IMG/VR virus record: IMGVR_UViG_3300034159_000059
DNA length: 64,000 nt
Reading direction: 5' to 3' (one strand)
Source: a virus
The notes below the pieces were generated by a model that had not been told where the DNA came from, searched no databases, and worked only from the letters and a program-made list of their open reading frames with translations. Below, piece by piece: positions 8,009-25,283 of the stretch. How positions within the stretch are numbered: position 1 is the stretch's first letter; the number at the start of each line of letters is the position of its first letter. Both the position numbers and the translations under genes were made by a program.

Positions 8009-8082
8009 GCTCCGGTAGCTCAGCAGGCAGCAGCGCCGGTTTCGTAAACCGGAGGTCGTCGGTTCGATTCCGACTCGGAGCT
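8009..8082 (+). tRNA. tRNA-Thr(CGT)
   Basis: cloverleaf: acceptor GCTCCGG/TCGGAGC, anticodon loop TTCGTAA, T-loop GGTTCGATTCC. Confidence 0.8.
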
Positions 8083-8089
8083 CTGAAGT

Positions 8090-8160
8090 GCGGTCATCGT
8101 CCAGTGGAAGGACGCGAGCTTGCCATGTTCGAAACGCGGGTTCAAATCCCGCTGACCGCT
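8090..8160 (+). tRNA. tRNA-Gly(GCC)
   Basis: acceptor GCGGTCA/TGACCGC, anticodon loop TTGCCAT, T-arm GCGGGTTCAAATCCCGC. Confidence 0.8.
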
Positions 8161-8176
8161 TGAAGTAGCAGTACAT

Positions 8177-8259
8177 GCCGACGACGTCAGGGACGGCCCC
8201 TGAGCTGACTGTAAATCAGATGCCTTCGGGCTAAGAAGGTTCGACTCCTTCCGGCGGCA
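8177..8259 (+). tRNA. tRNA-like, type II with candidate GTA (Tyr) anticodon; irregular D region
   Basis: T-arm GAAGGTTCGACTCCTTC, loop CTGTAAA between CTGA/TCAG, variable hairpin GCCTTCGGGC; acceptor has one mismatch and extra nt before D stem. Confidence 0.35.
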
Positions 8260-8380
8260 CTTGCAGGACCCGTACTCGAACTCGTGTCGAGGCGGTAGCG
8301 CTGGTCTCTGACAACCGAATCGCAGTGACAACTGAGAGGGACGGAGCGATTTCGTCTCCTGCTCTGCTCCCTCTCTTCAT

Positions 8381-8452
8381 GCCTTCGTAACTCAACGGTA
8401 GAGTAGCGGCCTTTTAAGCCGAGAGCTCTCGGTTCGAATCCGAGCGGAGGCA
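8381..8452 (+). tRNA. tRNA-Lys(TTT)
   Basis: acceptor GCCTTCG/CGGAGGC, anticodon loop CTTTTAA, T-arm CTCGGTTCGAATCCGAG. Confidence 0.8.
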
Positions 8453-8459
8453 CTTTCTT

Positions 8460-8533
8460 GGGAGTGTAACTCAACGGACTAGAGTAGCGGCCTCTTAAGC
8501 CGAAAGTTGGGGGTTCGAATCCCCCCACTCCCA
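8460..8533 (+). tRNA. tRNA-Lys(CTT)
   Basis: acceptor GGGAGTG/CACTCCC, anticodon loop CTCTTAA, T-arm GGGGGTTCGAATCCCCC. Confidence 0.8.
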
Positions 8534-8551
8534 CTCTTTGGAGGAGACAGG

Positions 8552-8785
8552 ATGCCTGTGAAGAAGTGGAAGAAGATCTGGAGAGTCACGTACCACGGAG
8601 GAAAGCACAGCTTCTTTTCGACGCCAGCAAAGGCCGAAGCCTTCGTCATCAAGGAGGCAAGAAAGCTGACGAACTACGACCGTGAGGAAGAGGAAGCCTG
8701 GCCTAAGAGCAGAGGCGGGCCGTCTGAGTACGCATGCTGCAAACTCGGGGCTACCATCAACGCACTCTTCCTGGACGAGGACTAG
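8552..8785 (+). CDS. hypothetical protein
   Basis: 77 aa, GGAGGAGACAGG SD. Confidence 0.5.
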   Translation: MPVKKWKKIWRVTYHGGKHSFFSTPAKAEAFVIKEARKLTNYDREEEEAWPKSRGGPSEYACCKLGATINALFLDED

Positions 8786-8788
8786 AAG

Positions 8789-8995
8789 ATGCCCATGAAC
8801 CATGCCTTCATCCTCCTCGCTGAAGTGGGTGAGGATCCGCAGATAGAACGAGCTGCCGAGTACTGGTACTGGTGTCCGATGTGCGGAACTCTGTCCCTGA
8901 ACGAGGCCGAGTTCTGGGTGGCTCCGGTTGTCATCGAATCGGAAGGAGTTCTTCCTCTCGGCCTTCAGTCCCCTCCTCCATGCAAAGAAGGTTGA
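8789..8995 (+). CDS. hypothetical protein
   Basis: 68-aa ORF. Confidence 0.4.
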   Translation: MPMNHAFILLAEVGEDPQIERAAEYWYWCPMCGTLSLNEAEFWVAPVVIESEGVLPLGLQSPPPCKEG

Positions 8996-8997
8996 TC

Positions 8998-9231
8998 GTG
9001 AAATACATCGTGCTTCACCAGACCGATGGAGAACCTGTCCATGTTGAACAGGTGACGCAGGAAGAGCTCTTGAAGAGGCTCAACGACTTCTACTACGGCG
9101 ACGCTCCAACCGTCCTCGACCATCTCCCAACATGCCGAGACGGGTGCCTGCGAGAGCTTGGGCTCGTCATCCTCGAAGCCAAGGTCGTGGTTCCGAAAGC
9201 TGTACAGACCGTGGTCAAGTACGAGTTGTAG
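8998..9231 (+). CDS. hypothetical protein
   Basis: ORF in frame 8872-9231; GTG start after AAGG chosen. Confidence 0.35.
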   Translation: MKYIVLHQTDGEPVHVEQVTQEELLKRLNDFYYGDAPTVLDHLPTCRDGCLRELGLVILEAKVVVPKAVQTVVKYEL

Positions 9232-9237
9232 GTTCAT

Positions 9238-9310
9238 GCGGTCCTAGCTCATCTGGTAGAGCGTCGGCTTCCCAAGCCGAAGGCGGCGGGTTCGAGTCCC
9301 GTGGACCGCT
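9238..9310 (+). tRNA. tRNA-Gly(CCC)
   Basis: acceptor GCGGTCC/GGACCGC, anticodon arm TCGGC-TTCCCAA-GCCGA, T-loop GGTTCGAGTCC. Confidence 0.8.
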
Positions 9311-9333
9311 CCAGAGCAGGCGCCACGACCAAG

Positions 9334-9768
9334 ATGAAAACGAGCTTGGCGATACCAGCGATGGATGGCGCAACAGTTGAGCTACCAGGGGCTTCGCTGG
9401 TCCTTGGTCGCGATGCTCAGCATGGGACAGGGATGCGTGACCTGCTCCACCAACACTACGGGAGGGCGCTCATGAAGACGTTGAAGGAAAGACTCACAGA
9501 CTGGCAAGACTTCGACGTAGCCGCTTATGAGCTAGGCGTCGTCCTTGGGCTGTTCTCAGAGTTCGGTGCGGAACCTGGGAAGGACCCCTGGAACGGCTTC
9601 AAATGGATCTTATGGTCCAACAACCCTATCGGCTACCGTCTGTACGAGATCATCCATCAGATGACCGCAGTCGGGATGCTTCTCGAAGACGAAGAGGGGC
9701 GTCGCAAGTGGAATCCAAGTTTTGATGCGAGCGTGTCCGAGAGGCTAGGACCTAGCCTTCCAAGCTAG
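9334..9768 (+). CDS. hypothetical protein (3' end overlaps tRNA-Gly(TCC))
   Basis: 145-aa ORF from first ATG downstream of tRNA-Gly(CCC). Confidence 0.4.
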   Translation: MKTSLAIPAMDGATVELPGASLVLGRDAQHGTGMRDLLHQHYGRALMKTLKERLTDWQDFDVAAYELGVVLGLFSEFGAEPGKDPWNGFKWILWSNNPIGYRLYEIIHQMTAVGMLLEDEEGRRKWNPSFDASVSERLGPSLPS

Positions 9769-9797
9769 AGACACCGGTTCGAATCCGGTCGCTCGCT
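9727..9797 (+). tRNA. tRNA-Gly(TCC)
   Basis: acceptor GCGAGCG/CGCTCGC, anticodon arm CTAGC-CTTCCAA-GCTAG, T-arm ACCGGTTCGAATCCGGT. Confidence 0.7.
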
Positions 9798-9816
9798 TTC
9801 AGTCTTCTCCTCCTGC

Positions 9817-9886
9817 TTGCTCGATAGCTTAACGGTAGAGCACTGGCCATGAACCGGGGATACGGGTTCGATTCCTGTTCGAGCAA
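9817..9886 (+). tRNA. tRNA, anticodon unresolved (short, weak anticodon stem; possibly CAT-like)
   Basis: acceptor TGCTCGA/TCGAGCA, D-arm TAGCTTAACGGTAGAGC, T-arm ACGGGTTCGATTCCTGT; anticodon arm CTGGCCATGAACCGGGG does not fold canonically. Confidence 0.4.
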
Positions 9887-10036
9887 GGAAGCAGTAGGAG
9901 AGTACCGGGTCGTGAGGCCCGGACTGGTAAAGAGTCAGTCAGCCTAACCGACTGAGCCGCTCGGCTCGACTGGAGGCGCTGTGCTCGCTGATCCCTCTTC
10001 TAAGAGACTGATCAGCCGCCAGACAAAAGTTTCATA

Positions 10037-10106
10037 GGGGTGTAGTTCAACGGCAGAACGCGGGCCTCTGGAGCCCGGTGTTGAAGGTTCGAATCCTTCC
10101 ACCCCT
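10037..10106 (+). tRNA. tRNA-Gln(CTG)
   Basis: anticodon arm CGGGC-CTCTGGA-GCCCG, T-arm GAAGGTTCGAATCCTTC. Confidence 0.75.
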
Positions 10107-10117
10107 TCTTCTTTCAC

Positions 10118-10189
10118 TGGGGTATCGTCCAACGGCAGGACGCCGGTCTTTGGAACCGGATGTTCCAGGTTCGAATCCTGGTACCCCAA
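10118..10189 (+). tRNA. tRNA-Gln(TTG)
   Basis: acceptor TGGGGTA/TACCCCA, anticodon arm CCGGT-CTTTGGA-ACCGG, T-arm CCAGGTTCGAATCCTGG. Confidence 0.8.
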
Positions 10190-10205
10190 CCATCTTGGAG
10201 GCATC

Positions 10206-10382
10206 ATGACGAAGGCCGAGCTCAAGGAATGTGCCGACGCATTCGCTAGCTTCATCGAATACGTGAAGGAGTACAGCGACCCAGTCACCGACGAACCACG
10301 ATACGTCGCCGCACGTCGCGCTCTTCGAAAGCTGCGTGGCCGAGTCATACCAACGAGCAAGACCAAGAAAACGCCGACGTAG
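10206..10382 (+). CDS. small hypothetical protein (58 aa)
   Basis: ATG after TTGGAGGCATC; ends inside the 5' end of tRNA-Thr(TGT). Confidence 0.3.
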   Translation: MTKAELKECADAFASFIEYVKEYSDPVTDEPRYVAARRALRKLRGRVIPTSKTKKTPT

Positions 10383-10448
10383 CTCAGACGGCAGAGCAGT
10401 CGCCTTGTAAGCGACAGGTCGCGAGTTCGATTCTCGCCGTCGGCTCCA
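10373..10448 (+). tRNA. tRNA-Thr(TGT), CCA encoded
   Basis: acceptor GCCGACG/CGTCGGC, anticodon arm GTCGC-CTTGTAA-GCGAC, T-arm GCGAGTTCGATTCTCGC, followed by TCCA. Confidence 0.8.
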
Positions 10449-10529
10449 ACATCCACACGGTGAAGGCTCTCGGTCACCGTTTCCGTGTGGAGGGTGCGCG
10501 CGACCGAGAGCGCGTTGCACTCGTCCTTC

Positions 10530-10604
10530 GGATCCGTAGCTCAATGTCAGAGCAGCCAGCTCATAACTGACCCGACCTCGGTTCAAGTCCGAGCGGATCC
10601 ACCA
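10530..10604 (+). tRNA. tRNA-Met(CAT) elongator/Ile2-type, CCA encoded
   Basis: acceptor GGATCCG/CGGATCC, anticodon loop CTCATAA, T-arm CTCGGTTCAAGTCCGAG, then ACCA. Confidence 0.7.
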
Positions 10605-10869: not shown

Positions 10870-10943
10870 TCCAGGGTAGCTCAACTGGCAGCAGCGCGCG
10901 GCTGTTAACCGCGAGGTTGAGGGTTCGAGTCCCTCCCCTGGAG
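10870..10943 (+). tRNA. tRNA-Asn(GTT)
   Basis: acceptor TCCAGGG/CCCTGGA, anticodon arm CGCGG-CTGTTAA-CCGCG, T-arm GAGGGTTCGAGTCCCTC. Confidence 0.75.
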
Positions 10944-11040
10944 CTTCTTTCGTCGTGCGCGCTGGCCGGGCCAGCCTCTAGCTGCAACCTAGAGTGGGCC
11001 GAGTTCGACCCTCGGGCGCACGTCTCTGCAAGGAGGATCA

Positions 11041-11411
11041 TGCCGTATGCTGACGTAAATCAGCAGCGAGAGTACCAGCGTAACTGGAAGGCAAAACGCA
11101 GAGCAGAGTACCTCGCTGATAAATGTTGCGCGAAGTGCGGATCACGAGACCGCCTCGAAATCGATCACAAGGATCCATCGAAGAAGCTGAGCCACAAGAT
11201 CTGGACGTGGTCTAAGGAGAGACGTGAGGCTGAATTGGCGAAGTGCCAGGTCCTCTGTCACAAGCATCATCGTGAGAAAACATCAGAAGAGACTCGGACG
11301 GCGATACACGGTAGTTCTCGCATGTACGGCCGCTATGGATGCCGTTGCGATCTCTGCAAGGCCTGGAAGGTAGAATCCAACAGGCAGCACCGAGAACGGC
11401 ATCCAAAGTAA
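11041..11411 (+). CDS. HNH homing endonuclease
   Basis: CAKCGSRDRLEIDHKDPSKK...CQVLCHKHHREKT HNH motif. Confidence 0.7.
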
Positions 11412-11710: not shown

Positions 11711-11782
11711 GGCCCTGTCTTCTAGTGGTAGGAAGCCAGATTCTCAATCTGGTAACGGTGGGTTCAATTCCCCCCAGGGTCA
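11711..11782 (+). tRNA. tRNA-Glu(CTC)
   Basis: acceptor GGCCCTG/CAGGGTC, anticodon arm CCAGA-TTCTCAA-TCTGG, T-loop GGTTCAATTCC. Confidence 0.7.
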
Positions 11783-11799
11783 CTTCTCAAGGAGACCGC

Positions 11800-12612
11800 A
11801 TGACGGATCGCTACGACTTGAAAGACGTACTCTGGCCCGATGTTCCTTTCGACTTGTTGCAGCACGCCATTCTCATCGGCAAGAGAGGATCTGAGGCTCA
11901 CGGCACCTACGTGCCTCCAACATCTGAGGACGGACAGCCTCTCGCTCACGGAACAGATGACAGAGACATCATAGGGATCTGCATCCCTCCTCTCGACTAC
12001 TACTTCGGTCTGAAGCTCTGGGAAGGGAAGGACGCCATCAAGGACTGCTGGGACGTGGTGCTCTACTCCTTCCGGAAGTTCGTCGGCCTCCTCTGCGAGC
12101 AGAACCCCAACGTCATCTCCCTGCTGTGGCTGCGCGAGGAAGACTACCTGCGCGTCTCTCCAGAAGGCAGAACTCTCCTCCAGCACAGAGACCTGTTCCG
12201 CTCCAAGAACAGAGCCTTCAAGAGCTTCGTCGGATACGCCAACGGACAGCTACACCGCATGACGCACCTCGGTCCGTACAAAGGCTACATGGGAGAGAAG
12301 AGGAAGAAGCTGGTCGACAAGTACGGGTACGACTGCAAGAACGCGGCACACCTCATCCGCCTGCTCACCATGGGAGCCGAGTTCCTACGTACTGGCGCTC
12401 TTCGCGTCTACCGAGAGGATGATCGAGAGATGCTCGTCGACATCAAGCTCGGACGTTGGGCTCTGGCAGATGTGCAGAGCTACGCTGCCAAGCTGTTCGA
12501 AGAGACAAAGGCTGCGGCAGACAACAGCCCTCTTCCAGAACACCCGGACCTTGCAGCGATCAACCAGCTCTCTGTGGAGCTGACCAAGAACTTCTTCGAG
12601 AGACAGTCGTAG
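11800..12612 (+). CDS. putative nucleotidyltransferase-fold protein
   Basis: GSEAHGTYVPPTSEDGQPLAHGTDDRD resembles the GS...DxD NTase core; 270 aa, AAGGAGACC SD. Confidence 0.4.
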   Translation: MTDRYDLKDVLWPDVPFDLLQHAILIGKRGSEAHGTYVPPTSEDGQPLAHGTDDRDIIGICIPPLDYYFGLKLWEGKDAIKDCWDVVLYSFRKFVGLLCEQNPNVISLLWLREEDYLRVSPEGRTLLQHRDLFRSKNRAFKSFVGYANGQLHRMTHLGPYKGYMGEKRKKLVDKYGYDCKNAAHLIRLLTMGAEFLRTGALRVYREDDREMLVDIKLGRWALADVQSYAAKLFEETKAAADNSPLPEHPDLAAINQLSVELTKNFFERQS

Positions 12613-12618
12613 AAGTGT

Positions 12619-12691: not shown

Positions 12692-12697
12692 TTTCAT

Positions 12698-20945: not shown

Positions 20946-21026
20946 GGTCCAGTGGCGGAATGGTAGACGCGCACGGCTCAGGACCGTGTGGGTAACACCG
21001 TGAGAGTTCGAATCTCTCCTGGACCA
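20946..21026 (+). tRNA. tRNA-Leu(CAG)
   Basis: acceptor GGTCCAG/CTGGACC, anticodon arm CACGG-CTCAGGA-CCGTG, extended variable arm, T-arm GAGAGTTCGAATCTCTC. Confidence 0.7.
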
Positions 21027-21108
21027 TGGGTCCCGAAAACTTCGGAGTAGTCGATGTTTCGGCATCGCACGAAAAGTCGTGAGTAGGGATCCTTCTTTTG
21101 GAGAAGCT

Positions 21109-21417
21109 ATGACTGAAAAAGAGATACAAGAAGGCATCGATTGGATCAGGGCTAGACCGAAAGCTATCCGTGAGCTCATGGTCAAGTTTCCTCCCTCCTG
21201 TCGAGTACGAGCTCTGCGTCCTCTTCGCACTCCATCTCCAGGCAAAGAAGGAGTGGTCATCTCCTACATCGAGAACGAGATGGGACCTCCTTCTCTTCGC
21301 GTCCAAGAACCAGACGGCGAAGTCGCGGCAGAGTGCCTTCCGGAGTGGTTGGAAGTGGTTGGTTACTGGGAACACGCGACTCCGGAGTTCGTGAAGCTCG
21401 CTATCGAAGGGCTGTAG
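21109..21417 (+). CDS. hypothetical protein
   Basis: 102 aa, TTGGAGAAGCT SD. Confidence 0.45.
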   Translation: MTEKEIQEGIDWIRARPKAIRELMVKFPPSCRVRALRPLRTPSPGKEGVVISYIENEMGPPSLRVQEPDGEVAAECLPEWLEVVGYWEHATPEFVKLAIEGL

Positions 21418-21423
21418 AAGTTT

Positions 21424-21506
21424 GCTCGGGTGGCGTAATGGTAGCCGCGCTGGCTTGAGGTGCCAGTGGTCGAAAGATCGTGAGGGTTCGAATCCCTCCC
21501 CGAGTA
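21424..21506 (+). tRNA. tRNA-Leu(GAG)
   Basis: acceptor GCTCGGG/CCCGAGT, anticodon arm CTGGC-TTGAGGT-GCCAG, long variable arm, T-arm GAGGGTTCGAATCCCTC. Confidence 0.75.
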
Positions 21507-21510
21507 CTTT

Positions 21511-21592
21511 GGCCGCGTGGCGGAACTGGTAGACGCGCTGGACTTAGGATCCAGTGCCGAAAGGCGTGAGGGTTCGATTCCCTCTGTGGCCA
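21511..21592 (+). tRNA. tRNA-Leu(TAG)
   Basis: acceptor GGCCGCG/TGTGGCC, anticodon arm CTGGA-CTTAGGA-TCCAG, long variable arm, T-arm GAGGGTTCGATTCCCTC. Confidence 0.75.
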
Positions 21593-21612
21593 CATCTTCT
21601 CTGGAGACAACC

Positions 21613-22092
21613 ATGAGCCGATCCAACAAATCTCGGAACAGCACTCGTACCAAGAGGTGGAAGGATACCGTGAGGGAGAGCCGCACCCAGGTTCGCAGTC
21701 GTGCGAAGTGGAAGAAGGTCACGAAGAACAGCCCGAAGAAGACCGGTGGATCTCGCGTCCCTCAGAAGCCGACTCCGAAGAAGATGACGGAACGAGAGCT
21801 GGTAGCGGAGGGGTTGGCCAACAACGCCACGGCCGAGATCATGGCGCAGTTCATGAAACGAGAGACGCCTATGCTACGCAAGTTCGGACCCAAGGCAGCA
21901 GGACATCCCTCGATCGGGGAACCGTGCCCGGCCTGCAAGGTGCCTTTCAAGGTTGGGGACTACACAGCACTGATCCCCCTCGGACCTGGGGATGATCCAG
22001 AAGAGCAGCAGAAGGCACGAGAGAAGAAGCCGTACACTGCGGTGGCAGTCGAGGTTCACTACGACTGCGCCGACCCACACACGCCCGAGTAG
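21613..22092 (+). CDS. basic hypothetical protein with C-terminal CxxC
   Basis: 159 aa, K/R-rich N-terminus; CTGGAGACAACC SD. Confidence 0.5.
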   Translation: MSRSNKSRNSTRTKRWKDTVRESRTQVRSRAKWKKVTKNSPKKTGGSRVPQKPTPKKMTERELVAEGLANNATAEIMAQFMKRETPMLRKFGPKAAGHPSIGEPCPACKVPFKVGDYTALIPLGPGDDPEEQQKAREKKPYTAVAVEVHYDCADPHTPE

Positions 22093-22158
22093 CGGAACTG
22101 GTAGACGCGGCTGGCTCAAACCCAGTGTCTCTTGAGAGTTCGAATCTCTCCTCGGGTA
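22083..22158 (+). tRNA. tRNA-Leu(CAA)-like with short (7-nt) variable region
   Basis: acceptor GCCCGAG/CTCGGGT, A73 discriminator, anticodon arm GCTGG-CTCAAAC-CCAGT, T-arm GAGAGTTCGAATCTCTC. Confidence 0.6.
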
Positions 22159-22203
22159 CCATTCGTAGTACAACCGTAGCCAAGAAAGGAGGGCGTCGCG
22201 CCC

Positions 22204-22749
22204 ATGGACACACTGGTCCTATCGCACGCTTACGAGCCCGTCGCCCATGTTCCGTGGCAACGGGCCATCACCTTGCTCTTCGAGGGCAAGGTGGAGGTCG
22301 TTGAGGAGTACGAGAACCGCTCTGTTCGTTCGGTGACCTTGGAGATCAAGATCCCCGCCGTCATCCGATTTCTTCGAGCAGTCCACAGCAGGAAGAGGGC
22401 CATCAAGTTCTCTCGTGAGAACGTGTACGCCCGAGACAGTGGACGCTGTCAGTACTGCAACAAGAGGGTTCCTCGTCCCGAGGCCACCTACGACCACGTC
22501 ACTCCACGCTCTCAGGGTGGCCAAACGACGTGGGAGAACGTGGTCATCGCATGCACTCCGTGTAACCAGAGGAAGGGCGGGCGGACTCCGCAGCAGGCCA
22601 AGATGCATCTGCTCTCGGTTCCGGTGAGACCGAAGAAGCTGCCGAACACGTTCCGCCTCACGTTCACGGTGGACAGGAACATCCCAGACGCCTGGAAGCA
22701 GTGGCTCGCCTCATACCACTACTGGCAGGATGAGCTGGAGCAGGGATGA
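22204..22749 (+). CDS. HNH homing endonuclease
   Basis: CQYCNKRVPRPEATYDHVTPRSQGGQTTWENVVIACTPCNQRKG HNH motif; AAAGGAGGG SD. Confidence 0.7.
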   Translation: MDTLVLSHAYEPVAHVPWQRAITLLFEGKVEVVEEYENRSVRSVTLEIKIPAVIRFLRAVHSRKRAIKFSRENVYARDSGRCQYCNKRVPRPEATYDHVTPRSQGGQTTWENVVIACTPCNQRKGGRTPQQAKMHLLSVPVRPKKLPNTFRLTFTVDRNIPDAWKQWLASYHYWQDELEQG

Positions 22750-23045: not shown

Positions 23046-23218
23046 CCTGCTGTCAGTGTGGTAGGACCAGCCCTCTCTTCAGCACCATTCAGTGCTCCTG
23101 CGGGCACAAGGCGTGCCCTCTAGTCCTCGATACGTTGGAGCTGGACGAGAAGATGCTGGAGAGGATGATTCGTAGAGTCTTGGAGAGTGAACCGGCTGGG
23201 CAGCCGGCATCGCCATGA
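23009..23218 (+). CDS. small Cys-rich (zinc-ribbon-like) protein
   Basis: CCQCG...CSCGHKAC; GGAGG SD; overlaps upstream ORF. Confidence 0.35.
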   Translation: MCTRYINKVATLTCCQCGRTSPLFSTIQCSCGHKACPLVLDTLELDEKMLERMIRRVLESEPAGQPASP

Positions 23219-23682
23219 TGAAGGTAATACAGAGGCTGTGTGGAAACTGTGGGATTTCTTTCCTTGCTATCGGAAAGTACCCTCGTCAGTACTGTAGCGA
23301 TGTCTGCTCAAGATCCATCGGAAGCACCAAGCAGCAGCAAGACATCTACGAAAAGTACATTCGTAGCTGGAAAGCTGGAGAGGTAGACGGCAGCAAAGGG
23401 TGTAACCAGATCTCCGGCCACATCCGCCGCTACCTCTTCGAGAAGTACAACAGCAAGTGCTGCAAATGTGGATGGGGAGAGACTAACCCGCACACAGGGA
23501 AGATCCCGTTGGAGGTCGAACACATCGATGGGAATTGGCAGAACAACAAGGAAGAGAATCTCCTCTTGCTCTGCCCGAACTGCCACTCCCTGACACCAAC
23601 ATATAGGGCTCTAAACAAGGGCCACGGCAGACCAGTACGACGTATGGAGAGTGAAGCTCGCATGGGCGAGCCGCCCGTTTGA
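23215..23682 (+). CDS. HNH homing endonuclease
   Basis: CCKCGWGETNP...LEVEHIDGNWQNN...LLLLCPNCH HNH motif. Confidence 0.7.
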   Translation: MMKVIQRLCGNCGISFLAIGKYPRQYCSDVCSRSIGSTKQQQDIYEKYIRSWKAGEVDGSKGCNQISGHIRRYLFEKYNSKCCKCGWGETNPHTGKIPLEVEHIDGNWQNNKEENLLLLCPNCHSLTPTYRALNKGHGRPVRRMESEARMGEPPV

Positions 23683-23823
23683 AGCGGGATGGAGCCCTCC
23701 GGGGCTTGGGGATCGGGCCCTCCTCTCTCCGCCACATTCGTCCCTGATGCGGTAACCAGCCCGCCGTGTTTGGAATCAGGGATGAAGCAGGGCGCCTCAG
23801 CCTGTGATCTGAGGCACTTTCAT

Positions 23824-23908
23824 GGAAAGCGTAGTCGGAGTGGTCCGACACCGGTCTCGAAAACCGGGCATGGCTTCGGCTGTGAGGGTTCGACTCCCTA
23901 GCTTTCCG
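23824..23908 (+). tRNA. tRNA-Ser(CGA)
   Basis: type II: acceptor GGAAAGC/GCTTTCC, anticodon arm CCGGT-CTCGAAA-ACCGG, long variable hairpin GGCTTCGGCT. Confidence 0.7.
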
Positions 23909-23911
23909 TTT

Positions 23912-24001
23912 GGAGCCAGCAGACCGGGAGGGTCCCGGCACCAGCTTGGAACGCTGGTCATCGCGCAAGCGGTGGAGGTTCGATCCCTCATGGCTCCGCC
24001 A
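23912..24001 (+). tRNA. tRNA-Ser(GGA), CCA encoded
   Basis: type II: acceptor GGAGCCA/TGGCTCC, anticodon arm CCAGC-TTGGAAC-GCTGG, variable hairpin CGCGCAAGCG, then GCCA. Confidence 0.7.
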
Positions 24002-24005
24002 ACCT

Positions 24006-24074
24006 CCCCAGGCCTGGTGGTCGGATGCTCGACGCGCAACGAGCAGGTTCGTTCAACGCGAACCCTGGGGGCCA
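24006..24074 (+). tRNA. tRNA-like with 8-nt anticodon loop (ACGCGCAA), CCA encoded; identity unknown
   Basis: acceptor CCCCAGG/CCTGGGG, stem GCTCG/CGAGC, T-arm GTTCG-TTCAACG-CGAAC, then GCCA; reduced D arm. Confidence 0.3.
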
Positions 24075-24344
24075 CACCGCGTAGGAGACGACGATGGAAG
24101 AGGGTCAAAAGACTCGACGTTGGAAGTCCTTCCGACGCCTGATGCCGACCGCCCCAGACTGGGAATACGGGCTCTGGATCTCATCGAAGTGGAAAGAGTT
24201 CGCCAACTCCAAGGGAGTGATGAAGTCGTTTGACTCAAGCTATTTCAACGCTCTCATGCTGACAGACCAGTACTGGTTCAACCTCGACAAGCTCCAGAAC
24301 GACTTCGACGATTGGCTGGAGCAGCTTCCAAGAACGGAAACGCC

Positions 24345-24815
24345 ATGCGAGTGCTCTTCCTCGACGACATGAAGATTCGCCACGAAGCCTACGCGAAAAC
24401 CCACATCGGCCAGGACACCGTGTACGTCTTCACGGCAAAAGAGGCGAAGGACGTGCTCGACAACCAGCCGCGTTTTGACCGAGCCCAGCTAGACCACGAC
24501 CTCGCCGAGGAGCATTACTTGGAGCTCTCCGAGGGCCTTTACGAGAGCGCGCAGCACTCTCCCACCTGCCTCGTTTCTCAAGGGCACGTCTACGCATGCA
24601 CCTGCGGAGCGCAGGAAGACGCCTACAAGACGAAGAAGCTCGTCGGCACTGGGATGGACGTCGTCGACCACATCGTGGCCATGGATCCCTACAAGCGTCC
24701 CAGGTACGTGATCATCCACTCTTACAACGAGAGGGGTGCCGAGATGCTGCGACGTCTCAAAGACGCCGGCGTCCCATCCGTCTGGATCCGTTTCGATCCC
24801 AAGAGCACTTTCTAG
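24345..24815 (+). CDS. hypothetical protein
   Basis: ORF 24312-24815; ATG 24345 chosen; overlaps the 3' end of ORF 24094-24372, whose frame is also open. Confidence 0.4.
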   Translation: MRVLFLDDMKIRHEAYAKTHIGQDTVYVFTAKEAKDVLDNQPRFDRAQLDHDLAEEHYLELSEGLYESAQHSPTCLVSQGHVYACTCGAQEDAYKTKKLVGTGMDVVDHIVAMDPYKRPRYVIIHSYNERGAEMLRRLKDAGVPSVWIRFDPKSTF

Positions 24816-24824
24816 GAGCACACG

Positions 24825-24903
24825 GTCGGGAGGGCCCCGACACTCGCCTGCTAAACGAGTCACTCCGCAAGGGGTGCCGGTTCGATCCCGGGGTGCTCCG
24901 CCA
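24825..24903 (+). tRNA. tRNA-Ser(GCT), CCA encoded
   Basis: acceptor GGAGCAC/GTGCTCC, anticodon loop CTGCTAA, long variable arm, T-arm GCCGGTTCGATCCCGGG, then GCCA. Confidence 0.7.
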
Positions 24904-24916
24904 TTCAGGAGACGAC

Positions 24917-25201
24917 ATGAAGAAGACCAAGAAGAGAGAAATCGGTAGGCTAGTGATAGGGCTCCACCTCTTCACCGGGCCAGCTCACTCTGCTGCTTGC
25001 CGAGCCATCTACCGAGTCGACTTCTCAGATGGCTCGACAGAGACAGTGTCTGGTCTCTCCGTAATGTCCCTGACGCACCCACAACGCAAGGATGATCCAC
25101 ACGCGCGTCCGGATCTGTATGCGGTACTGGAGGCGGCTCTACCTCTGGCCAAAGAGCTAGAGAATGCCTGTGTCAAAGCAGACGGCGTGCATATCAAGTA
25201 A
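24917..25201 (+). CDS. hypothetical protein
   Basis: 94 aa, AGGAGACGAC SD. Confidence 0.5.
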   Translation: MKKTKKREIGRLVIGLHLFTGPAHSAACRAIYRVDFSDGSTETVSGLSVMSLTHPQRKDDPHARPDLYAVLEAALPLAKELENACVKADGVHIK

Positions 25202-25209
25202 AGCCAGAC

Positions 25210-25283
25210 GCTCCCGTAGTTCAGTTGGATAGAACGTTGGCCTTCTAAGCCAAATGTCGCAGGTTCGAGTCCTGCCGGGAGCG
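25210..25283 (+). tRNA. tRNA-Arg(TCT)
   Basis: acceptor GCTCCCG/CGGGAGC, anticodon arm TTGGC-CTTCTAA-GCCAA, T-arm GCAGGTTCGAGTCCTGC. Confidence 0.8.

What the first reader, a model, noticed from the sequence alone, without database searches (positions are those of the whole stretch)
8009..25283. Dispersed array of about 40 tRNA genes interleaved with HNH endonucleases and small ORFs
tRNAs for Thr, Gly, Lys, Gln, Met, fMet, Asn, Glu, Pro, Ile, His, Asp, Phe, Ala, Val, Arg, Leu and Ser were identified by cloverleaf folding. There are multiple isoacceptors: Pro x3, Arg x4, Leu x4, Ser x3, Ala x3, Gly x4 and Thr x3. All sit on the + strand, some only 2-8 nt apart. Phe/Ala, the Arg triplet and the Ser pair are examples. 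The isoacceptor choice favours G/C-ending codons. Four HNH genes (7593, 11041, 22204, 23215) sit inside the array. Cys, Trp and a clear Tyr were not found.
Basis: seen in the sequence. Interest (0 to 1): 0.6.

Follow-up and report, generated by a model that had tools for sequence, protein, structure and literature searches.

The report
Near-complete tRNA gene array of a huge phage
This is a real, 17-kb run of 44 same-strand tRNA genes, enough to read about 99% of the element's own codons, interleaved with HNH nucleases and RNA-repair genes in a 200-kb-class phage related to Myxococcus phage Mx1. It is a known kind of feature, though several of its tRNAs break normally invariant tRNA rules.

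Summary
ARAGORN finds 43 tRNA genes, all on the + strand, and 36 of them pass Rfam's tRNA threshold. I add a 44th, tRNA-Tyr(GTA) at 8177-8259, supported by homology and compensatory changes.

All three are present but have non-canonical compact D arms. Gly has 3 isoacceptors, not 4. All four HNH ORFs match HNH families.

The set covers all 20 amino acids plus an initiator and reads about 99% of 10,306 codons sampled from the window. Only TTA, TCA, GTA and perhaps ATA are unread.

The tRNA order is almost identical in two other metagenomic phage contigs and partly shared with cultured Myxococcus phage Mx1. The proteins between the tRNAs differ. A roughly 90%-identical sister contig lacks the array at this locus.

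The array sits among tRNA and translation maintenance genes: PTH2-like hydrolase, RlaP, cREC, RtcB and a tmRNA.

Best reading: a phage tRNA supply module that makes translation independent of the host tRNA pool. It is a new member of a known kind.

Unusual points are C33 or A33 in 7 tRNAs, Sec-like D arms in 7, an initiator with an extra arm, and a conserved CUA tRNA although TAG is a normal stop here.

The parts
4993..5068 (+). tRNA with CUA anticodon (amber-suppressor type), anticodon loop UACUAGC with A33
   Evidence: ARAGORN; Rfam tRNA 42.9 bits. An ortholog with A33 and a compensatory change in the anticodon stem occurs in L007/L016.
5955..6347 (+). PTH2-like peptidyl-tRNA hydrolase gene. 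The first canonical start is TTG at 6009, but conserved residues are encoded from 5955.
   Evidence: 72-78% identical in L005 and L016. 65% identical to Mx1 'peptidyl-tRNA hydrolase'. A 38-sequence profile hits archaeal Pth2 structures at E 6e-4 to 3e-3. Direct Pfam scan was negative.
7215..7321 (+). Strong terminator-like hairpin (7215-7239) followed by a sigma-70-like promoter match (7292-7321), just upstream of the array
   Evidence: These are consensus matches only; site counts in the region do not exceed shuffles.
7593..7979 (+). HNH endonuclease ORF (128 aa). Its 3' end overlaps the 5' part of tRNA-Trp.
   Evidence: PHROGs phrog_3106 at 3e-26. 52% identical to a stretch of the Mx1 tRNA region. 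No Pfam hit.
7931..8007 (+). tRNA-Trp(CCA), CCA encoded. Best cloverleaf is 7938-8004, with a 4-bp D stem and 3-nt loop.
   Evidence: ARAGORN; MFE cloverleaf. No Rfam hit. Same slot as Trp in L005 and L016.
8009..8160 (+). tRNA-Thr(CGU) 8009-8083 and tRNA-Gly(GCC) 8090-8160
   Evidence: ARAGORN; Rfam 58.0 and 63.1 bits.
8177..8259 (+). tRNA-Tyr(GUA), class II, with a 6-bp D stem and 5-nt loop. Missed by ARAGORN.
   Evidence: Rfam Sec model 29.1 bits. 86-91% identical to Tyr genes in L005 and L007. 96% of cells paired, 3 pairs with changes on both sides. MFE cloverleaf.
8381..8534 (+). tRNA-Lys(UUU) 8381-8453 and tRNA-Lys(CUU) 8460-8534
   Evidence: ARAGORN; Rfam 66.1 and 67.2 bits.
9238..9313 (+). 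tRNA-Gly(CCC)
   Evidence: ARAGORN; Rfam 64.8 bits.
9727..9887 (+). tRNA-Gly(UCC) 9727-9797 and an odd tRNA 9817-9887 with loop CCAUGAA (anticodon AUG, C33)
   Evidence: ARAGORN; Rfam 60.0 and 49.8 bits. The slot of the odd tRNA holds different tRNAs in L005 and L016.
10036..10192 (+). tRNA-Gln(CUG) 10036-10108 and tRNA-Gln(UUG) 10118-10192, a tandem duplicate pair
   Evidence: ARAGORN; Rfam 66.9 and 66.3 bits. TRF period 82, 77% matches.
10373..10604 (+). tRNA-Thr(UGU) 10373-10448 and tRNA(CAU) 10530-10604 (elongator Met or Ile2, undecided)
   Evidence: ARAGORN; Rfam 71.4 and 54.8 bits.
10870..11024 (+). tRNA-Asn(GUU) 10870-10944 and tRNA-Cys(GCA) 10956-11024. Cys has a 4-bp D stem and 3-nt loop.
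   Evidence: ARAGORN. Rfam 59.4 bits for Asn, none for Cys. MFE cloverleaf.
11040..11411 (+). HNH endonuclease ORF (123 aa). It lies between Cys and Glu(CUC), which are 4 nt apart in L016.
   Evidence: PHROGs phrog_4234 at 1e-43. L016 spacing.
11711..11783 (+). tRNA-Glu(CUC)
   Evidence: ARAGORN; Rfam 55.3 bits.
11800..12612 (+). RlaP-family (RNA-ligase-associated Pol-beta) nucleotidyltransferase gene, between the two Glu tRNAs
   Evidence: Pfam PF10127 RlaP at 3.6e-14, 53.5 bits against a cut-off of 23. Homologs occur in 649 phage records, 336 of them Mycobacterium phages.
12618..12772 (+). tRNA-Glu(UUC) 12618-12692 and tRNA-Pro(UGG) 12698-12772
   Evidence: ARAGORN; Rfam 51.3 and 70.1 bits.
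12794..13255 (+). dCMP deaminase gene (not TadA)
   Evidence: Pfam dCMP_cyt_deam_1 at 7.5e-20. phrog_174 dCMP deaminase at 4e-46. TadA model only 23 bits against a cut-off of 150.
13262..13648 (+). tRNA-Pro(GGG) 13262-13338 (C33) and tRNA-Pro(CGG) 13574-13648
   Evidence: ARAGORN; Rfam 59.9 and 67.2 bits. C33 is shared with L005.
14041..14204 (+). tRNA-Ile(GAU) 14041-14113 (C33) and tRNA-His(GUG) 14130-14204 (G-1, CCA encoded)
   Evidence: ARAGORN; Rfam 63.9 and 57.1 bits. C33 is shared with L005.
14249..15739 (+). AAA+ ATPase gene (496 aa)
   Evidence: Pfam AAA at 1.6e-16. Homologs at 38-42% identity in 113 phage records.
15786..15858 (+). tRNA-Asp(GUC), compact D arm, U37
   Evidence: ARAGORN. 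Rfam Sec model 31.7 bits, no tRNA-model hit. Mx1 Asp has the same loop, CUGUCUA.
15954..16970 (+). Coiled-coil protein gene (338 aa; named 'chromosome segregation ATPase' by JGI)
   Evidence: GC3 0.88. phrog_29668 at 1.5e-15. 39% identical homolog inside the L005 array, at another slot and on the opposite strand.
17011..17316 (+). tRNA-Phe(GAA) 17011-17084, tRNA-Ala(CGC) 17085-17158, tRNA-Val(GAC) 17244-17316
   Evidence: ARAGORN; Rfam 58.6, 47.0 and 69.2 bits.
17855..17929 (+). tRNA-Ala(GGC), C33
   Evidence: ARAGORN; Rfam 48.7 bits; loop UCGGCAA.
18591..18740 (+). tRNA-Ala(UGC) 18591-18666 and tRNA-Thr(GGU) 18669-18740
   Evidence: ARAGORN; Rfam 58.6 and 62.0 bits.
19166..19399 (+). tRNA-Arg(ACG) 19166-19242, tRNA-Arg(CCG) 19248-19322, tRNA-Arg(CCU) 19324-19399
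   Evidence: ARAGORN; Rfam 65.6, 73.7 and 65.1 bits. The same triplet order occurs in Mx1.
19715..19801 (+). Initiator-type tRNA(CAU), 87 nt: C1/A72 mismatch, GGG/CCC anticodon stem, and an extra 4-bp variable-arm hairpin
   Evidence: ARAGORN structure; Rfam 55.1 bits; MFE fold.
20029..20177 (+). tRNA(CAU) 20029-20102 (C33) and tRNA-Val(CAC) 20102-20177 (C33, irregular D arm)
   Evidence: ARAGORN. Rfam 59.1 bits for the first, none for Val(CAC). L005 has C33 in the same CAU tRNA.
20186..20215 (+). Remnant of a tRNA 3' half (T arm plus acceptor strand), 8 nt after Val(CAC)
   Evidence: Repeat family D12; sequence read.
20946..22161 (+). tRNA-Leu(CAG) 20946-21026, Leu(GAG) 21424-21507, Leu(UAG) 21511-21593, Leu(CAA) 22083-22161
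   Evidence: ARAGORN; Rfam 58.2, 53.7, 56.1 and 53.5 bits.
22204..22749 (+). HNH endonuclease gene (181 aa), conserved at the Leu(CAA)/Ser slot
   Evidence: Pfam HNH_5 61.5 bits (cut-off 27.5) and HNH 52.9 bits. phrog_16726 at 9e-35. 68% identical to the HNH at the same slot in L005. 47% identical to the Mx1 HNH next to tRNA-Leu.
23215..23682 (+). HNH endonuclease ORF (155 aa)
   Evidence: phrog_10822 at 1.8e-17. Pfam HNH_3 21.6 bits, below the cut-off of 24.8.
23823..24001 (+). tRNA-Ser(CGA) 23823-23909 and tRNA-Ser(GGA) 23912-24001, both with a 6-bp D stem and 3-4-nt loop
   Evidence: ARAGORN. Rfam Sec model 43.3 bits for the first, none for the second. MFE cloverleaves.
24312..24815 (+). 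cREC (cyclic-phosphate-processing receiver) domain gene
   Evidence: Pfam PF20274 cREC_REC at 2.3e-10, 41.4 bits against a cut-off of 27.
24815..24903 (+). tRNA-Ser(GCU), 6-bp D stem and 5-nt loop, CCA encoded
   Evidence: ARAGORN; no Rfam hit; MFE cloverleaf.
25210..25284 (+). tRNA-Arg(UCU), last gene of the array
   Evidence: ARAGORN; Rfam 74.3 bits. It is also the last tRNA of the L005 array.
40480..41661 (+). RtcB RNA ligase gene (context, outside the finding)
   Evidence: Pfam RtcB at 4.7e-122, 408.7 bits.
44273..44651 (+). tmRNA gene (context, outside the finding)
   Evidence: Rfam RF00023 at 114.1 bits, full length. The tag ANQPMVNEFRAAA* is read from the sequence.

Best explanation
**What it is (shown).** The region is the tRNA gene array of a large tailed phage. 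The source contig is 209 kb, and the nearest cultured relative found is Myxococcus phage Mx1.
- Forty-three tRNA genes lie between 7931 and 25284, all on the + strand. A CUA-anticodon tRNA lies at 4993.
- The set covers all 20 amino acids plus an initiator.

**How it most likely works (inferred).**
- The array is transcribed rightward as long precursors. The only strong terminator-like and promoter-like pair lies just upstream, at 7215-7321.
- Host RNase P, RNase Z and the CCA-adding enzyme then cut the precursors into tRNAs and complete them. Only 13 of the genes encode CCA.
- The resulting pool reads about 99% of the phage's codons. Phage translation therefore does not depend on host tRNAs, which may be poorly matched, shut off, or cleaved by host tRNA-targeting defences.

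**Supporting genes, identified by family match only.** Their roles here are inferred.
- A PTH2-like peptidyl-tRNA hydrolase lies upstream.
- An RlaP nucleotidyltransferase and a cREC phosphoesterase-type domain lie inside the array.
- An RtcB ligase, an RNase AS-like exoribonuclease and a tmRNA lie downstream.
- Together they would repair cleaved tRNAs and rescue stalled ribosomes.

**Architecture.** The tRNA order is an inherited backbone. Most protein genes between the tRNAs, including three of the four HNH nucleases, are lineage-specific insertions into spacers that are 3-12 nt long in a relative. This fits free-standing homing endonucleases and their cargo. One HNH gene (22204) is a conserved resident.
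For: **tRNA calls.** ARAGORN finds 43 and Rfam accepts 36 at threshold. Tyr is added by homology and covariation.

**Coverage.** The 40 sense anticodons read 10,201 of 10,306 codons from 37 window genes.

**Order conservation.**
- The longest common subsequence with L005 is 37 of 41, against a maximum of 17 in 2,000 shuffles. There are 29 shared adjacencies, against a shuffle maximum of 6.
- With L016 it is 17 of 19.
- With Mx1 it is 17 of 32, against a shuffle maximum of 12. There are 12 shared adjacencies, against a shuffle maximum of 5.
- Orthologous tRNAs are only 62-89% identical, and the one shared internal non-HNH protein only 39%. The order is therefore old.

**Insertions.**
- Trp to Pro(GGG) spans 1.7 kb in L016 but 5.4 kb here.
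- Only the HNH at 22204 and the coiled-coil protein are shared with the L005 array.
- The HNH at 22204 is 68% identical at the same slot in L005.

**HNH identity.**

**Maintenance genes.**
- RlaP, cREC and RtcB.
- PTH2-like hydrolase.
- tmRNA.
- RNase AS-like exoribonuclease.

**Phage identity.**
- Relatives are IMG/VR viral contigs.
- Mx1 shares four proteins at 47-65% identity.
- A GH108 endolysin-like gene and an Acb2/Tad1-like gene lie on the same contig.
- The source contig is 209,442 bp.

**Literature.**
- Jumbo phages combine tRNA sets with RtcB, RlaP and cREC (PMC7824862).
- Phage tRNAs are proposed to replace tRNAs cleaved by host nucleases (PMC10264068, PMC11555353, PMC11464382).
- Huge phages carry up to 67 tRNAs and also tmRNAs (PMC7162821).
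Against: - No expression, processing or aminoacylation data exist.
- Eight of the 44 genes fail the Rfam tRNA model. Seven tRNAs lack U33 and seven have compact D arms, so some could be impaired or non-decoding.
- No hallmark capsid or terminase gene lies in the window. One ORF gives only a weak terminase-family match.
- The host is unknown, so neither codon mismatch nor host tRNA nucleases can be examined.
- A contig about 90% identical to L016 has no tRNAs at this locus, and the 198-kb contig has no match to the invariant Tyr 3' half. The array is therefore dispensable for at least some relatives.
- Promoter-like and terminator-like site counts do not exceed shuffles, so the transcription model is weak.
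Confidence: 0.85

Rival explanations
1. **Codon compensation only.** The phage (58% GC) infects a much GC-richer host. It carries tRNAs simply to supply codons that the host reads poorly.
For: - Mx1, the closest cultured relative, has 55.5% GC against 68.8% for its host, and its authors link this to its tRNAs (PMC10720576).
- The window has 58% GC, with GC3 around 0.7-0.9.
- PTH2 homologs at 63-67% identity occur in Myxococcota MAGs.
Against: - The set is nearly complete rather than selective.
- It includes 13 C34 isoacceptors that read only G-ending codons, which a GC-rich host would already serve well.
- It lacks the readers of TTA, TCA and GTA, which such a host would serve worst.
- The co-located RNA-repair genes are not explained.
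- The host is not identified, so no direct comparison was possible.
Confidence: 0.3
2. **Partly decaying array.** The non-canonical genes (Trp, Cys, Tyr, Asp, Val-CAC, the Ser genes, the AUG-anticodon tRNA and the CUA tRNA) are pseudogenes or non-decoding tRNA-like RNAs. Only the roughly 35 canonical genes function.
For: - Eight genes fail the Rfam tRNA model.
- Seven lack U33.
- Only 13 encode CCA, against 33 of 42 in L005.
- A tRNA 3'-half remnant lies at 20186-20215.
- The HNH ORF at 7593 overlaps the 5' part of Trp.
Against: - All the odd genes keep intact acceptor, anticodon and T stems and fold into cloverleaves without constraints.
- The Tyr D stem shows compensatory changes.
- C33 in Pro-GGG, Ile-GAU and one CAU tRNA is shared with L005, and A33 of the CUA tRNA is shared with L007.
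- Without these genes the phage would lack Trp, Cys, Tyr, Asp and Ser, yet it keeps every other amino acid.
Confidence: 0.15
3. **Not a phage.** The array belongs to a bacterial chromosome, an integrative element or a megaplasmid, as described for bacterial tRNA arrays.
For: - No capsid, portal or clear terminase gene lies in the 64-kb window.
- Large plasmids can carry similar translation gene sets (PMC7162821).
- PTH2 homologs also occur on clearly bacterial contigs such as L026.
Against: - Syntenic arrays occur in IMG/VR viral contigs and in cultured phage Mx1.
- PHROG-type HNH genes, an N4-like-phage AAA ATPase, a GH108 endolysin-like gene and an Acb2/Tad1-like anti-defence gene lie on the same contig.
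- No ribosomal or housekeeping bacterial genes lie in the window.
Confidence: 0.04
4. **Stop-codon recoding.** The CUA tRNA marks a phage that reads TAG as an amino acid, at least in late genes.
For: - A CUA tRNA passes Rfam and is conserved in a relative.
- Recoded phages with suppressor tRNAs are well known (my own knowledge of the literature).
- Seven TAG stops are followed in frame by another coding-like ORF.
Against: - TAG ends 16 of 37 well-supported genes.
- ORFs of 851, 661, 539, 496 and 453 codons contain no TAG.
- Every in-frame downstream ORF has its own start codon and Shine-Dalgarno-like sequence, often TAGGAG itself.
- A33 is an unusual anticodon-loop base for an efficient decoder.
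- Only 64 of 209 kb were seen, so late genes are untested.
Confidence: 0.07

Closest known systems
tRNA region of Myxococcus phage Mx1 (OR576727; 169.6 kb; PMC10720576)
   Same: - It is a dispersed, same-strand tRNA array interleaved with HNH endonucleases and small ORFs.
- It shares runs of order: Glu-Pro-Pro-Ile-Asp-Phe, Asn-Cys-Glu, and Arg-Arg-Arg-Met-Met-Val-Leu-Leu. There are 12 shared adjacencies, against a shuffle maximum of 5.
- Shared proteins are PTH2-like (65% identity), YpsA-SLOG (50%) and two HNH proteins (47-52%).
- An HNH gene lies next to tRNA-Leu.
- The Asp anticodon loop is identical.
- RNA-repair-type neighbours are present (TROVE, VWA, phosphoesterase).
   Different: - Mx1 has fewer tRNAs: 32 by ARAGORN in 30 kb, and 22 annotated.
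- It has no CUA tRNA in the stretch read and no non-U33 loops (0 of 32).
- It carries TROVE and VWA genes where this window carries MVP-like and RtcB genes.
- There is no DNA-level similarity.
- The genome here is larger, at 209 kb or more.
Metagenomic arrays L005 (JGI 3300049487) and L007/L016 (IMGVR_UViG_3300045747_000648)
   Same: - The tRNA order is almost the same: 37 of 41 and 17 of 19 in order.
- The tRNA-Tyr with a long D stem is the same.
- L016 has the same CUA tRNA with A33 and the PTH2-like gene upstream.
- L005 has the same HNH at the Leu/Ser slot and C33 in the same three tRNAs.
   Different: - Both are far more compact. L016 spacers are mostly 3-12 nt, with no ORFs among the first 18 tRNAs.
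- Most of their tRNAs encode CCA.
- The Ser, Asp and Cys genes of L005 are canonical.
- L005 adds Ser(UGA) and lacks Arg(CCG).
- In L005 the array is inverted relative to its flanking genes.
Cluster C1 mycobacteriophages (Bxz1/Rizal type; PMC10264068) and jumbo-phage RNA-repair sets (PMC7824862)
   Same: - They carry 30-36 clustered tRNAs.
- RlaP homologs occur in 336 Mycobacterium phage records.
- Anticodon-loop deviations there are interpreted as escape from host anticodon nucleases.
- From my own knowledge, they also carry a tmRNA.
   Different: - They are unrelated in sequence and in host.
- Here the set is larger (44) and complete for all 20 amino acids.
- The deviations here include position 33 and the D arm, which that work did not describe (one search found no mention of U33).
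Huge phages of Al-Shayeb et al. 2020 (PMC7162821)
   Same: - The genome exceeds 200 kb.
- Their tRNA sets are large (up to 67), with tmRNAs and tRNA ligation or modification genes.
- The MVP-like protein of this window has its only phage-database homologs in three of those genomes.
   Different: - No tRNAs lie near the MVP homologs in those genomes.
- No aminoacyl-tRNA synthetase was seen in this window.
- The clade is different: 58% GC and affinity to Mx1.
Homing endonucleases in the tRNA regions of T4 (SegB) and T5 (HNH genes), from my own knowledge, not checked here
   Same: Free-standing endonuclease genes sit between tRNA genes and are thought to promote inheritance of the tRNA region.
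   Different: - Those arrays are much smaller (8 and about 24 tRNAs).
- No homing or cleavage evidence exists here.
- One HNH gene here is a conserved resident rather than a sporadic insert.

Membership tests
tRNA (Rfam RF00005) | Covariance-model score at or above the gathering threshold (29 bits) | tested here: met
   36 of 43 ARAGORN genes score 42.9-74.3 bits. Trp, Cys, Asp, Val(CAC), three Ser and the added Tyr do not reach it. Three of these reach 29-43 bits on the tRNA-Sec model only.
tRNA (Rfam RF00005) | Canonical anticodon loop with U33 and a purine at position 37 (my own knowledge of tRNA conservation) | tested here: not met
   37 of 44 genes comply with U33. Seven have C33 or A33, and Asp has U37. 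The feature therefore fails for a minority.
tRNA gene array (definition recalled from the bacterial tRNA-array literature: at least 20 tRNA genes at 2 or more per kb) | Number and density of tRNA genes in one orientation | tested here: met
   43 genes in 17,347 bp gives 2.5 per kb, all on the + strand. The threshold itself is recalled from memory, not checked.
HNH endonuclease | Match to HNH family profiles | tested here: met
   ORF 22204 passes Pfam HNH_5 and HNH cut-offs. ORF 23215 is below the Pfam cut-off but scores 2e-17 in PHROGs. ORFs 7593 and 11040 match in PHROGs only, at 3e-26 and 1e-43.
Free-standing homing endonuclease | Sporadic presence between otherwise adjacent conserved genes in relatives | tested here: inconclusive
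   ORFs 11040 and 23215 (and 7593 at the array edge) have no counterpart at the same slots in L005 or L016, where the tRNAs abut. ORF 22204 is conserved in L005 and Mx1. Only three or four genomes are available.
Free-standing homing endonuclease | Site-specific cleavage of the endonuclease-free allele and gene conversion | not testable with these tools
   This needs co-infection or in vitro cleavage assays.
Stop-codon-recoded phage (TAG read as sense, with a suppressor tRNA) | In-frame TAG codons inside genes and TAG avoided as a terminator | tested here: not met
   TAG terminates 16 of 37 genes. Long ORFs contain no TAG. Downstream in-frame ORFs have their own ribosome-binding sites. Only this 64-kb window was tested.
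PTH2 peptidyl-tRNA hydrolase (PF01981) | Profile similarity over the full length to PTH2 proteins | tested here: met
   The direct Pfam scan was negative. A 38-sequence profile has archaeal Pth2 structures as its top five hits (E 5.6e-4 to 0.015), aligned end to end. Many homologs carry precomputed PF01981 hits, though those shown for two contigs are marked faint. The Mx1 homolog is annotated as such. The match is weak but consistent.
RNA repair set of jumbo phages (RtcB + RlaP + cREC; PMC7824862) | Presence of a ligase, an RlaP nucleotidyltransferase and an end-processing domain in one genome | tested here: met
   RtcB 408.7 bits, RlaP 53.5 bits and cREC_REC 41.4 bits, all above Pfam cut-offs. 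They are not one operon: they lie at 40.5 kb, 11.8 kb and 24.3 kb.
tmRNA (RF00023) | Full-length covariance-model match plus a tag reading frame ending in a stop | tested here: met
   114.1 bits against a threshold of 47, covering model positions 1-374. The frame GCC...TAA encodes ANQPMVNEFRAAA; the resume codon is inferred. ARAGORN did not call it.
Mx1-like phage lineage | Shared hallmark (capsid, terminase) phylogeny or genome-wide gene sharing | not tested
   Only four shared proteins (47-65% identity) and array synteny were seen. No hallmark genes lie in the window, and other large window proteins have no Mx1 match.

The most novel reading that the evidence does not exclude
In this phage lineage a vertically inherited, order-conserved and nearly complete tRNA set has been deliberately remodelled at positions that are almost invariant in cellular tRNAs.
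- U33 is replaced by C in six tRNAs and by A in the CUA tRNA.
- Sec-like compact D arms occur in Trp, Cys, Tyr, Asp and all three Ser tRNAs.
- The initiator carries an extra arm.

On this reading the phage tRNAs still decode but are no longer recognised by host tRNA-targeting nucleases or modification enzymes. The conserved A33 CUA tRNA is then not a recoding device. It would be either a decoy for such a nuclease or a deliberately weak, conditional amber suppressor.
Probability: 0.22. Interest if true: 0.65.

Novelty: new member of a known kind. Interest (0 to 1): 0.4.

Why it matters
Large tRNA arrays in jumbo phages are well known, so the array itself adds a member, not a concept. Four points make it useful.

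1. With 44 genes, all 20 amino acids and about 99% codon coverage, it is close to a self-sufficient decoding set. It lacks exactly the A-ending-codon readers that a codon-compensation model would predict. It is therefore a clean natural case for testing tRNA pool replacement or anti-defence against codon compensation.
2. The tRNA order is conserved across phages whose tRNAs are only 62-89% identical, while the inter-tRNA genes turn over. A roughly 90%-identical sister contig has no array at the locus. This gives a system for studying how such arrays are inherited, invaded by HNH genes and lost.
3. The lineage-specific C33, A33 and compact-D-arm tRNAs are candidates for functional tRNAs that break canonical rules. 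Standard annotation misses them: 8 of 44 here fail the Rfam model, and Mx1 has 22 annotated against 32 found by ARAGORN in only 30 kb of its genome.
4. It links uncultured 200-kb phages to the cultured phage Mx1 and its host Myxococcus, where experiments are possible.

Tried and rejected
- **TadA hypothesis.** I asked whether the deaminase at 12794-13255 serves Arg(ACG) or the AUG-anticodon tRNA. Rejected: it is a dCMP deaminase (phrog_174 at 4e-46), and the TadA model scores 23 bits against a cut-off of 150.
- **TAG recoding.** Rejected for this window. My first two read-through scripts returned nothing because a file-loading bug read an alignment row instead of the window. They are void and were redone.
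- **Near-identical phages.** None exist in the INPHARED phage collection (GenBank phage records).
- **Close relatives in IMG/VR by protein.** The MVP-like, coiled-coil and RtcB proteins found none.
- **Metagenome scans.** Both scans with tRNA-Tyr patterns found nothing related. The first had 0 hits, and the second returned only unrelated Thr(UGU) genes.
- **Further viral-contig patterns.** The Ile(GAU) and CUA-tRNA patterns found no further relatives.
- **MVP homologs in huge phages.** The loci in LR756500 and LR756501 carry no tRNAs.
- **Virus Rctr197k.** It was the top 'distant' DNA hit. Its tRNA order is only marginally similar: longest common subsequence 14 against a shuffle maximum of 13, and 3 adjacencies. 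No shared proteins occur in its array region.
- **Origin of the AUG-anticodon tRNA.** Descent from a Gln(UUG) copy at the same slot in L007 is not supported by alignment.
- **tRNA(CAU) at 10530 as Ile2.** I tried to assign it by comparison with a UAU-type tRNA-like sequence at the matching L005 slot. The alignment was too poor to decide.
- **Other large contigs with the PTH2-like gene.** L022 and L024 have only 2-7 tRNAs nearby and no such array. L026 is bacterial.
- **PHROGs on ten further window proteins.** Almost nothing was found.
- **Host identification.** Not achieved.

Full report
**1. Observation**

ARAGORN finds 43 tRNA genes in the window, all on the + strand.
- Forty-one lie inside the stated 8009-25284.
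- Trp(CCA) ends one base before the stated start (7931-8007; best cloverleaf 7938-8004).
- A CUA-anticodon tRNA lies at 4993-5068.

Rfam covariance models at curated thresholds accept 36 of the 43, at 42.9-74.3 bits against 29, and also find a tmRNA at 44273-44651.

A permissive Rfam scan showed a 29-bit tRNA-Sec-model match at 8177-8258.
- Read by eye, it has the loop CUGUAAA (anticodon GUA), a long variable arm, a T arm and a 7-bp acceptor stem with A73.
- It is 86-91% identical to sequences at the same slot in two related arrays. ARAGORN calls one of them tRNA-Tyr.
- Across only three sequences, 96% of cells pair. Three pairs change on both sides, two of them in the D stem.
- I therefore count 44 tRNA genes.

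Gly has 3, not 4. Cys, Trp and Tyr, reported as not found, are present.

**2. Anatomy**

From Trp to Arg(UCU) the array spans 17,347 bp, of which 3,281 bp (19%) is tRNA. That is 2.5 genes per kb.

Sixteen of the 42 spacers are 20 nt or less. Phe/Ala abut, the Arg triplet is separated by 5 and 1 nt, and Ser(CGA)/Ser(GGA) by 2 nt. The median spacer is 227 nt and the longest is 1,661 nt.

The longer spacers hold + strand ORFs. Those with a family assignment are:

| Coordinates | Gene |
|---|---|
| 7593-7979, 11040-11411, 22204-22749, 23215-23682 | HNH endonucleases |
| 11800-12612 | RlaP nucleotidyltransferase, between the two Glu tRNAs |
| 12794-13255 | dCMP deaminase, between two Pro tRNAs |
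| 14249-15739 | AAA+ ATPase |
| 15954-16970 | Coiled-coil protein |
| 24312-24815 | cREC-domain protein |

About twenty further small ORFs show a coding-like GC3 pattern but no family match.

Gln(CUG) and Gln(UUG) form an 82-nt tandem duplicate. A tRNA 3'-half remnant follows Val(CAC) at 20186-20215.

The only strong terminator-like hairpin, together with a 10/12 promoter-like match, lies at 7215-7321, just upstream of the array. Site counts in the scanned region (4500-24400) do not exceed shuffles.

**3. Repertoire and codon usage**

The set has 40 different sense anticodons covering all 20 amino acids.

There are three CAU tRNAs. One is initiator-like: it has a C1/A72 mismatch and a GGG/CCC anticodon stem. 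These are features of bacterial initiators, from my own knowledge.

There is one tRNA with anticodon AUG and one with CUA.

I took 37 well-supported genes from the window (10,306 codons) and applied standard wobble rules. The set reads 99.0% of codons. Unread codons are TTA (4), TCA (33), GTA (48) and ATA (20). ATA may be read if one CAU tRNA is lysidine-modified, but I could not decide that.

The missing anticodons are UAA, UGA and UAC, but nine U34 tRNAs are present.

**4. Non-canonical tRNAs**

*Position 33.* Seven tRNAs lack U33. Position 33 is U in nearly all known tRNAs (my own knowledge).
- Six have C33: Pro(GGG), Ile(GAU), Ala(GGC), one CAU tRNA, Val(CAC) and the AUG-anticodon tRNA.
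- The CUA tRNA has A33.
- C33 in Pro(GGG), Ile(GAU) and the CAU tRNA is shared with L005.
- A33 in the CUA tRNA is shared with L007, where the first anticodon-stem pair has changed from U-A to C-G.
- Mx1 has 0 of 32 non-U33 loops and Rctr197k has 1 of 30, so the trait is specific to this lineage.

*D arm.* Seven tRNAs (Trp, Cys, Tyr, Asp and all three Ser) have a D arm with a 4-6-bp stem and a 3-5-nt loop that keeps GG.
- Unconstrained folding gives cloverleaves with this arm for Trp, Cys, Tyr and the three Ser. For Asp the same D arm forms, but the anticodon arm is misfolded.
- This resembles the tRNA-Sec D arm (my own knowledge).
- The L005 Ser and Asp genes pass the Rfam tRNA model.

*Other points.*
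- The initiator carries an extra 4-bp hairpin in the variable region.
- Asp has U37, as in Mx1.
- Only 13 genes encode CCA, against 33 of 42 in L005.

**5. The CUA tRNA and recoding**

TAG ends 16 of the 37 sampled genes, against 17 for TGA and 4 for TAA. ORFs of 851, 661, 539, 496 and 453 codons contain no TAG.

Seven TAG stops are followed in frame by another coding-like ORF. Each such ORF has its own start codon and a Shine-Dalgarno-like sequence, often formed by TAGGAG itself.

There is therefore no sign of TAG recoding in this window. The role of the conserved A33 CUA tRNA remains unexplained.

**6. Relatives**

No phage in the INPHARED phage collection (GenBank phage records) is similar at the DNA level.

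The exact product of 15954-16970 is on record on a 209,442-bp JGI contig and in Logan assemblies of SRR10968273.

*L005.* A 39%-identical homolog led to L005, a 15.4-kb contig from JGI 3300049487. Its 41 tRNAs are in almost the same order as here.
- The longest common subsequence is 37 of 41, against a shuffle mean of 10 and maximum of 17.
- There are 29 shared adjacencies, against a shuffle maximum of 6.
- Orthologous tRNAs are 62-89% identical.

*L007/L016.* The invariant 3' half of tRNA-Tyr led to an IMG/VR contig.
- The CUA tRNA, the PTH2-like gene and the first 18 array tRNAs occur in the same order.
- They are packed into 1.7 kb with spacers mostly 3-12 nt. The same stretch takes 5.4 kb here.

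*Proteins inside the array.*
- Of the proteins inside the window's array, only HNH 22204 and the coiled-coil protein recur in L005.
- HNH 22204 is 68% identical and sits at the same Leu/Ser slot.
- The coiled-coil protein sits at another slot and on the opposite strand.
- Relative to shared flanking genes, the L005 array is inverted.

*Sister contigs without the array.*
- Two IMG/VR contigs are about 90% identical to L016 up to a point just before the CUA tRNA.
- They then diverge and contain no tRNAs in the next 9 kb.
- The 198-kb contig also has no match to the invariant Tyr 3' half.
- The array is therefore absent at that locus and probably from that assembly.

*Mx1.* The PTH2-like protein is 65% identical to a gene annotated as peptidyl-tRNA hydrolase in Myxococcus phage Mx1.
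- The region read from Mx1 is a dispersed tRNA array with HNH genes.
- ARAGORN finds 32 tRNAs in that 30-kb stretch, against 22 annotated in the whole genome.
- Twelve adjacencies are shared with this array, against a shuffle maximum of 5.
- Three further proteins are shared at 47-52% identity.

*Virus Rctr197k.* It has a compact 30-31-tRNA array, but its order is only marginally similar.

**7. Genomic context**

Upstream of the array lie a HAD/PNKP-like ORF, an adenylosuccinate synthetase homolog, the CUA tRNA and the PTH2-like gene.
- The HAD/PNKP-like ORF has a weak Pfam hit, below cut-off.
- The adenylosuccinate synthetase homolog passes Pfam but falls below the NCBIfam equivalog cut-offs.

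Downstream lie the following:
- a YpsA-SLOG protein;
- an RNase AS-like 3'-5' exoribonuclease;
- a DUF1257 protein and an AAA+ ATPase;
- an 851-aa protein with major-vault-protein shoulder and repeat domains;
- RtcB, at 408.7 bits;
- a DUF3150 protein;
- the tmRNA.

The tmRNA's tag reads ANQPMVNEFRAAA from the sequence.

The minus-strand block includes a GH108 endolysin-like gene and an Acb2/Tad1-like gene, by precomputed Pfam hits on the Logan contig.

The combination of tRNA sets with RtcB, RlaP and cREC is described for jumbo phages (PMC7824862). RlaP homologs occur in 649 phage records, half of them tRNA-rich mycobacteriophages.

**8. Mechanism**

*Shown.*
- Gene identities.
- Codon coverage.
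- Conservation of order.
- Turnover of the inter-tRNA genes.

*Inferred.*
- The array supplies a phage-made tRNA pool that sustains translation independently of the host pool.
- Repair and rescue functions are encoded alongside it.

I favour pool replacement or counter-defence over pure codon compensation, for three reasons.
- The set is complete rather than selective.
- It includes all the C34 readers that a GC-rich host would already supply.
- It omits the TTA, TCA and GTA readers that such a host would lack.

Codon compensation remains a real contributor if the host is a roughly 69%-GC myxobacterium, as for Mx1 (PMC10720576).

The HNH genes are best read as free-standing homing-type endonucleases. 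One of them is a conserved resident. No cleavage evidence exists.

**9. Novelty and score**

Large phage tRNA arrays, their HNH passengers, tmRNAs and RNA-repair partners are all documented (PMC7162821, PMC7824862, PMC10264068). This is a new member of a known kind.

The points of some interest are:
- the near-complete repertoire;
- the deep conservation of tRNA order alongside a presence/absence polymorphism;
- the lineage-specific breaches of tRNA conventions;
- the link to a cultured myxophage.

I score interest at 0.4.

Noticed in passing
window 37809-40364 (+), next to RtcB at 40480-41661: An 851-aa protein has major-vault-protein domains (Pfam MVP_shoulder 1.6e-27, Vault_3 3.5e-10). It lies directly upstream of the RtcB RNA ligase. 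Its only homologs in the phage collection are in three huge-phage genomes, LR756500, LR756501 and LR756503, at 39-42% identity. A vault-like shell protein beside an RNA ligase in a phage is unusual.
   Followed up: partly
window 44273-44651 (+): A full-length tmRNA gene scores 114 bits in Rfam but ARAGORN does not call it. The tag reading frame gives ANQPMVNEFRAAA followed by a stop.
   Followed up: partly
window 5955-6347 (+): A PTH2-like peptidyl-tRNA hydrolase gene is 72-78% identical in L005 and L016 and 65% identical in Mx1. The conserved N-terminal residues (RHYCIGRQDLPLGV) are encoded upstream of the first canonical start, TTG at 6009. No ATG, GTG or TTG lies before them, so the gene either uses a non-canonical start or is 5'-truncated.
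   Followed up: partly
L021 (Myxococcus phage Mx1, OR576727, 44314-74613): ARAGORN finds 32 tRNA genes in this 30-kb stretch, but the whole 169.6-kb genome is annotated with 22. The unannotated ones include three 69-70-nt Arg tRNAs with short D arms, three Pro tRNAs, Cys and two Ser tRNAs. The published tRNA count for Mx1 is probably too low.
   Followed up: partly
L018 and L017 (IMGVR_UViG_3300045971_000895 and 3300045970_000884) compared with L016: These contigs are about 90% identical to L016 up to a point just before the CUA tRNA. They then carry unrelated sequence with no tRNAs. This is a presence/absence polymorphism covering the CUA tRNA, the PTH2-like gene and the array.
   Followed up: partly
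window 19715-19801 (+): The initiator-type tRNA has an acceptor stem and anticodon arm like E. coli tRNA-fMet (compared from memory). It carries an extra 4-bp hairpin (GGCGCAAGCC) in the variable region, making it 87 nt long.
   Followed up: partly
window 9817-9887 (+): A tRNA scoring 49.8 bits in Rfam has the anticodon loop CCAUGAA, giving anticodon AUG with C33. It has no G-1 and an A73 discriminator. Its slot in the array holds a different tRNA in each relative: Leu(UAG) in L005 and a second Gln(UUG) in L016. Its identity and function are unknown.
   Followed up: partly
window 6513-6599 and 6630-6716 (+): An 87-nt direct repeat (74% identity, 117 nt apart) lies at the end of ORF 6274-6627 and just beyond it.
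   Followed up: no
window 45600-47200: This stretch has 63% GC and long ORFs open in several frames on both strands. A 336-aa ORF at 45604-46614 has no Pfam match. It was not examined further.
   Followed up: no
window 55616-56179 (-) and about 57192-57413 (-): A GH108 lysozyme with a PG_binding_3 domain (endolysin-like) and an Acb2/Tad1-hairpin protein (anti-CBASS/anti-Thoeris sponge family) are indicated. The evidence is precomputed Pfam hits on the identical Logan contig L019. I converted the coordinates to window positions by hand.
   Followed up: no
L024 (Logan SRR33230309, 188-kb contig): Another large phage-like contig carries the PTH2-like gene next to a few tRNAs. It also carries an RNA ligase (PF09414), Thg1 (tRNA-His guanylyltransferase), a Band_7 protein and a metallophosphatase. 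This is a different RNA-repair set around the same PTH2 gene.
   Followed up: no
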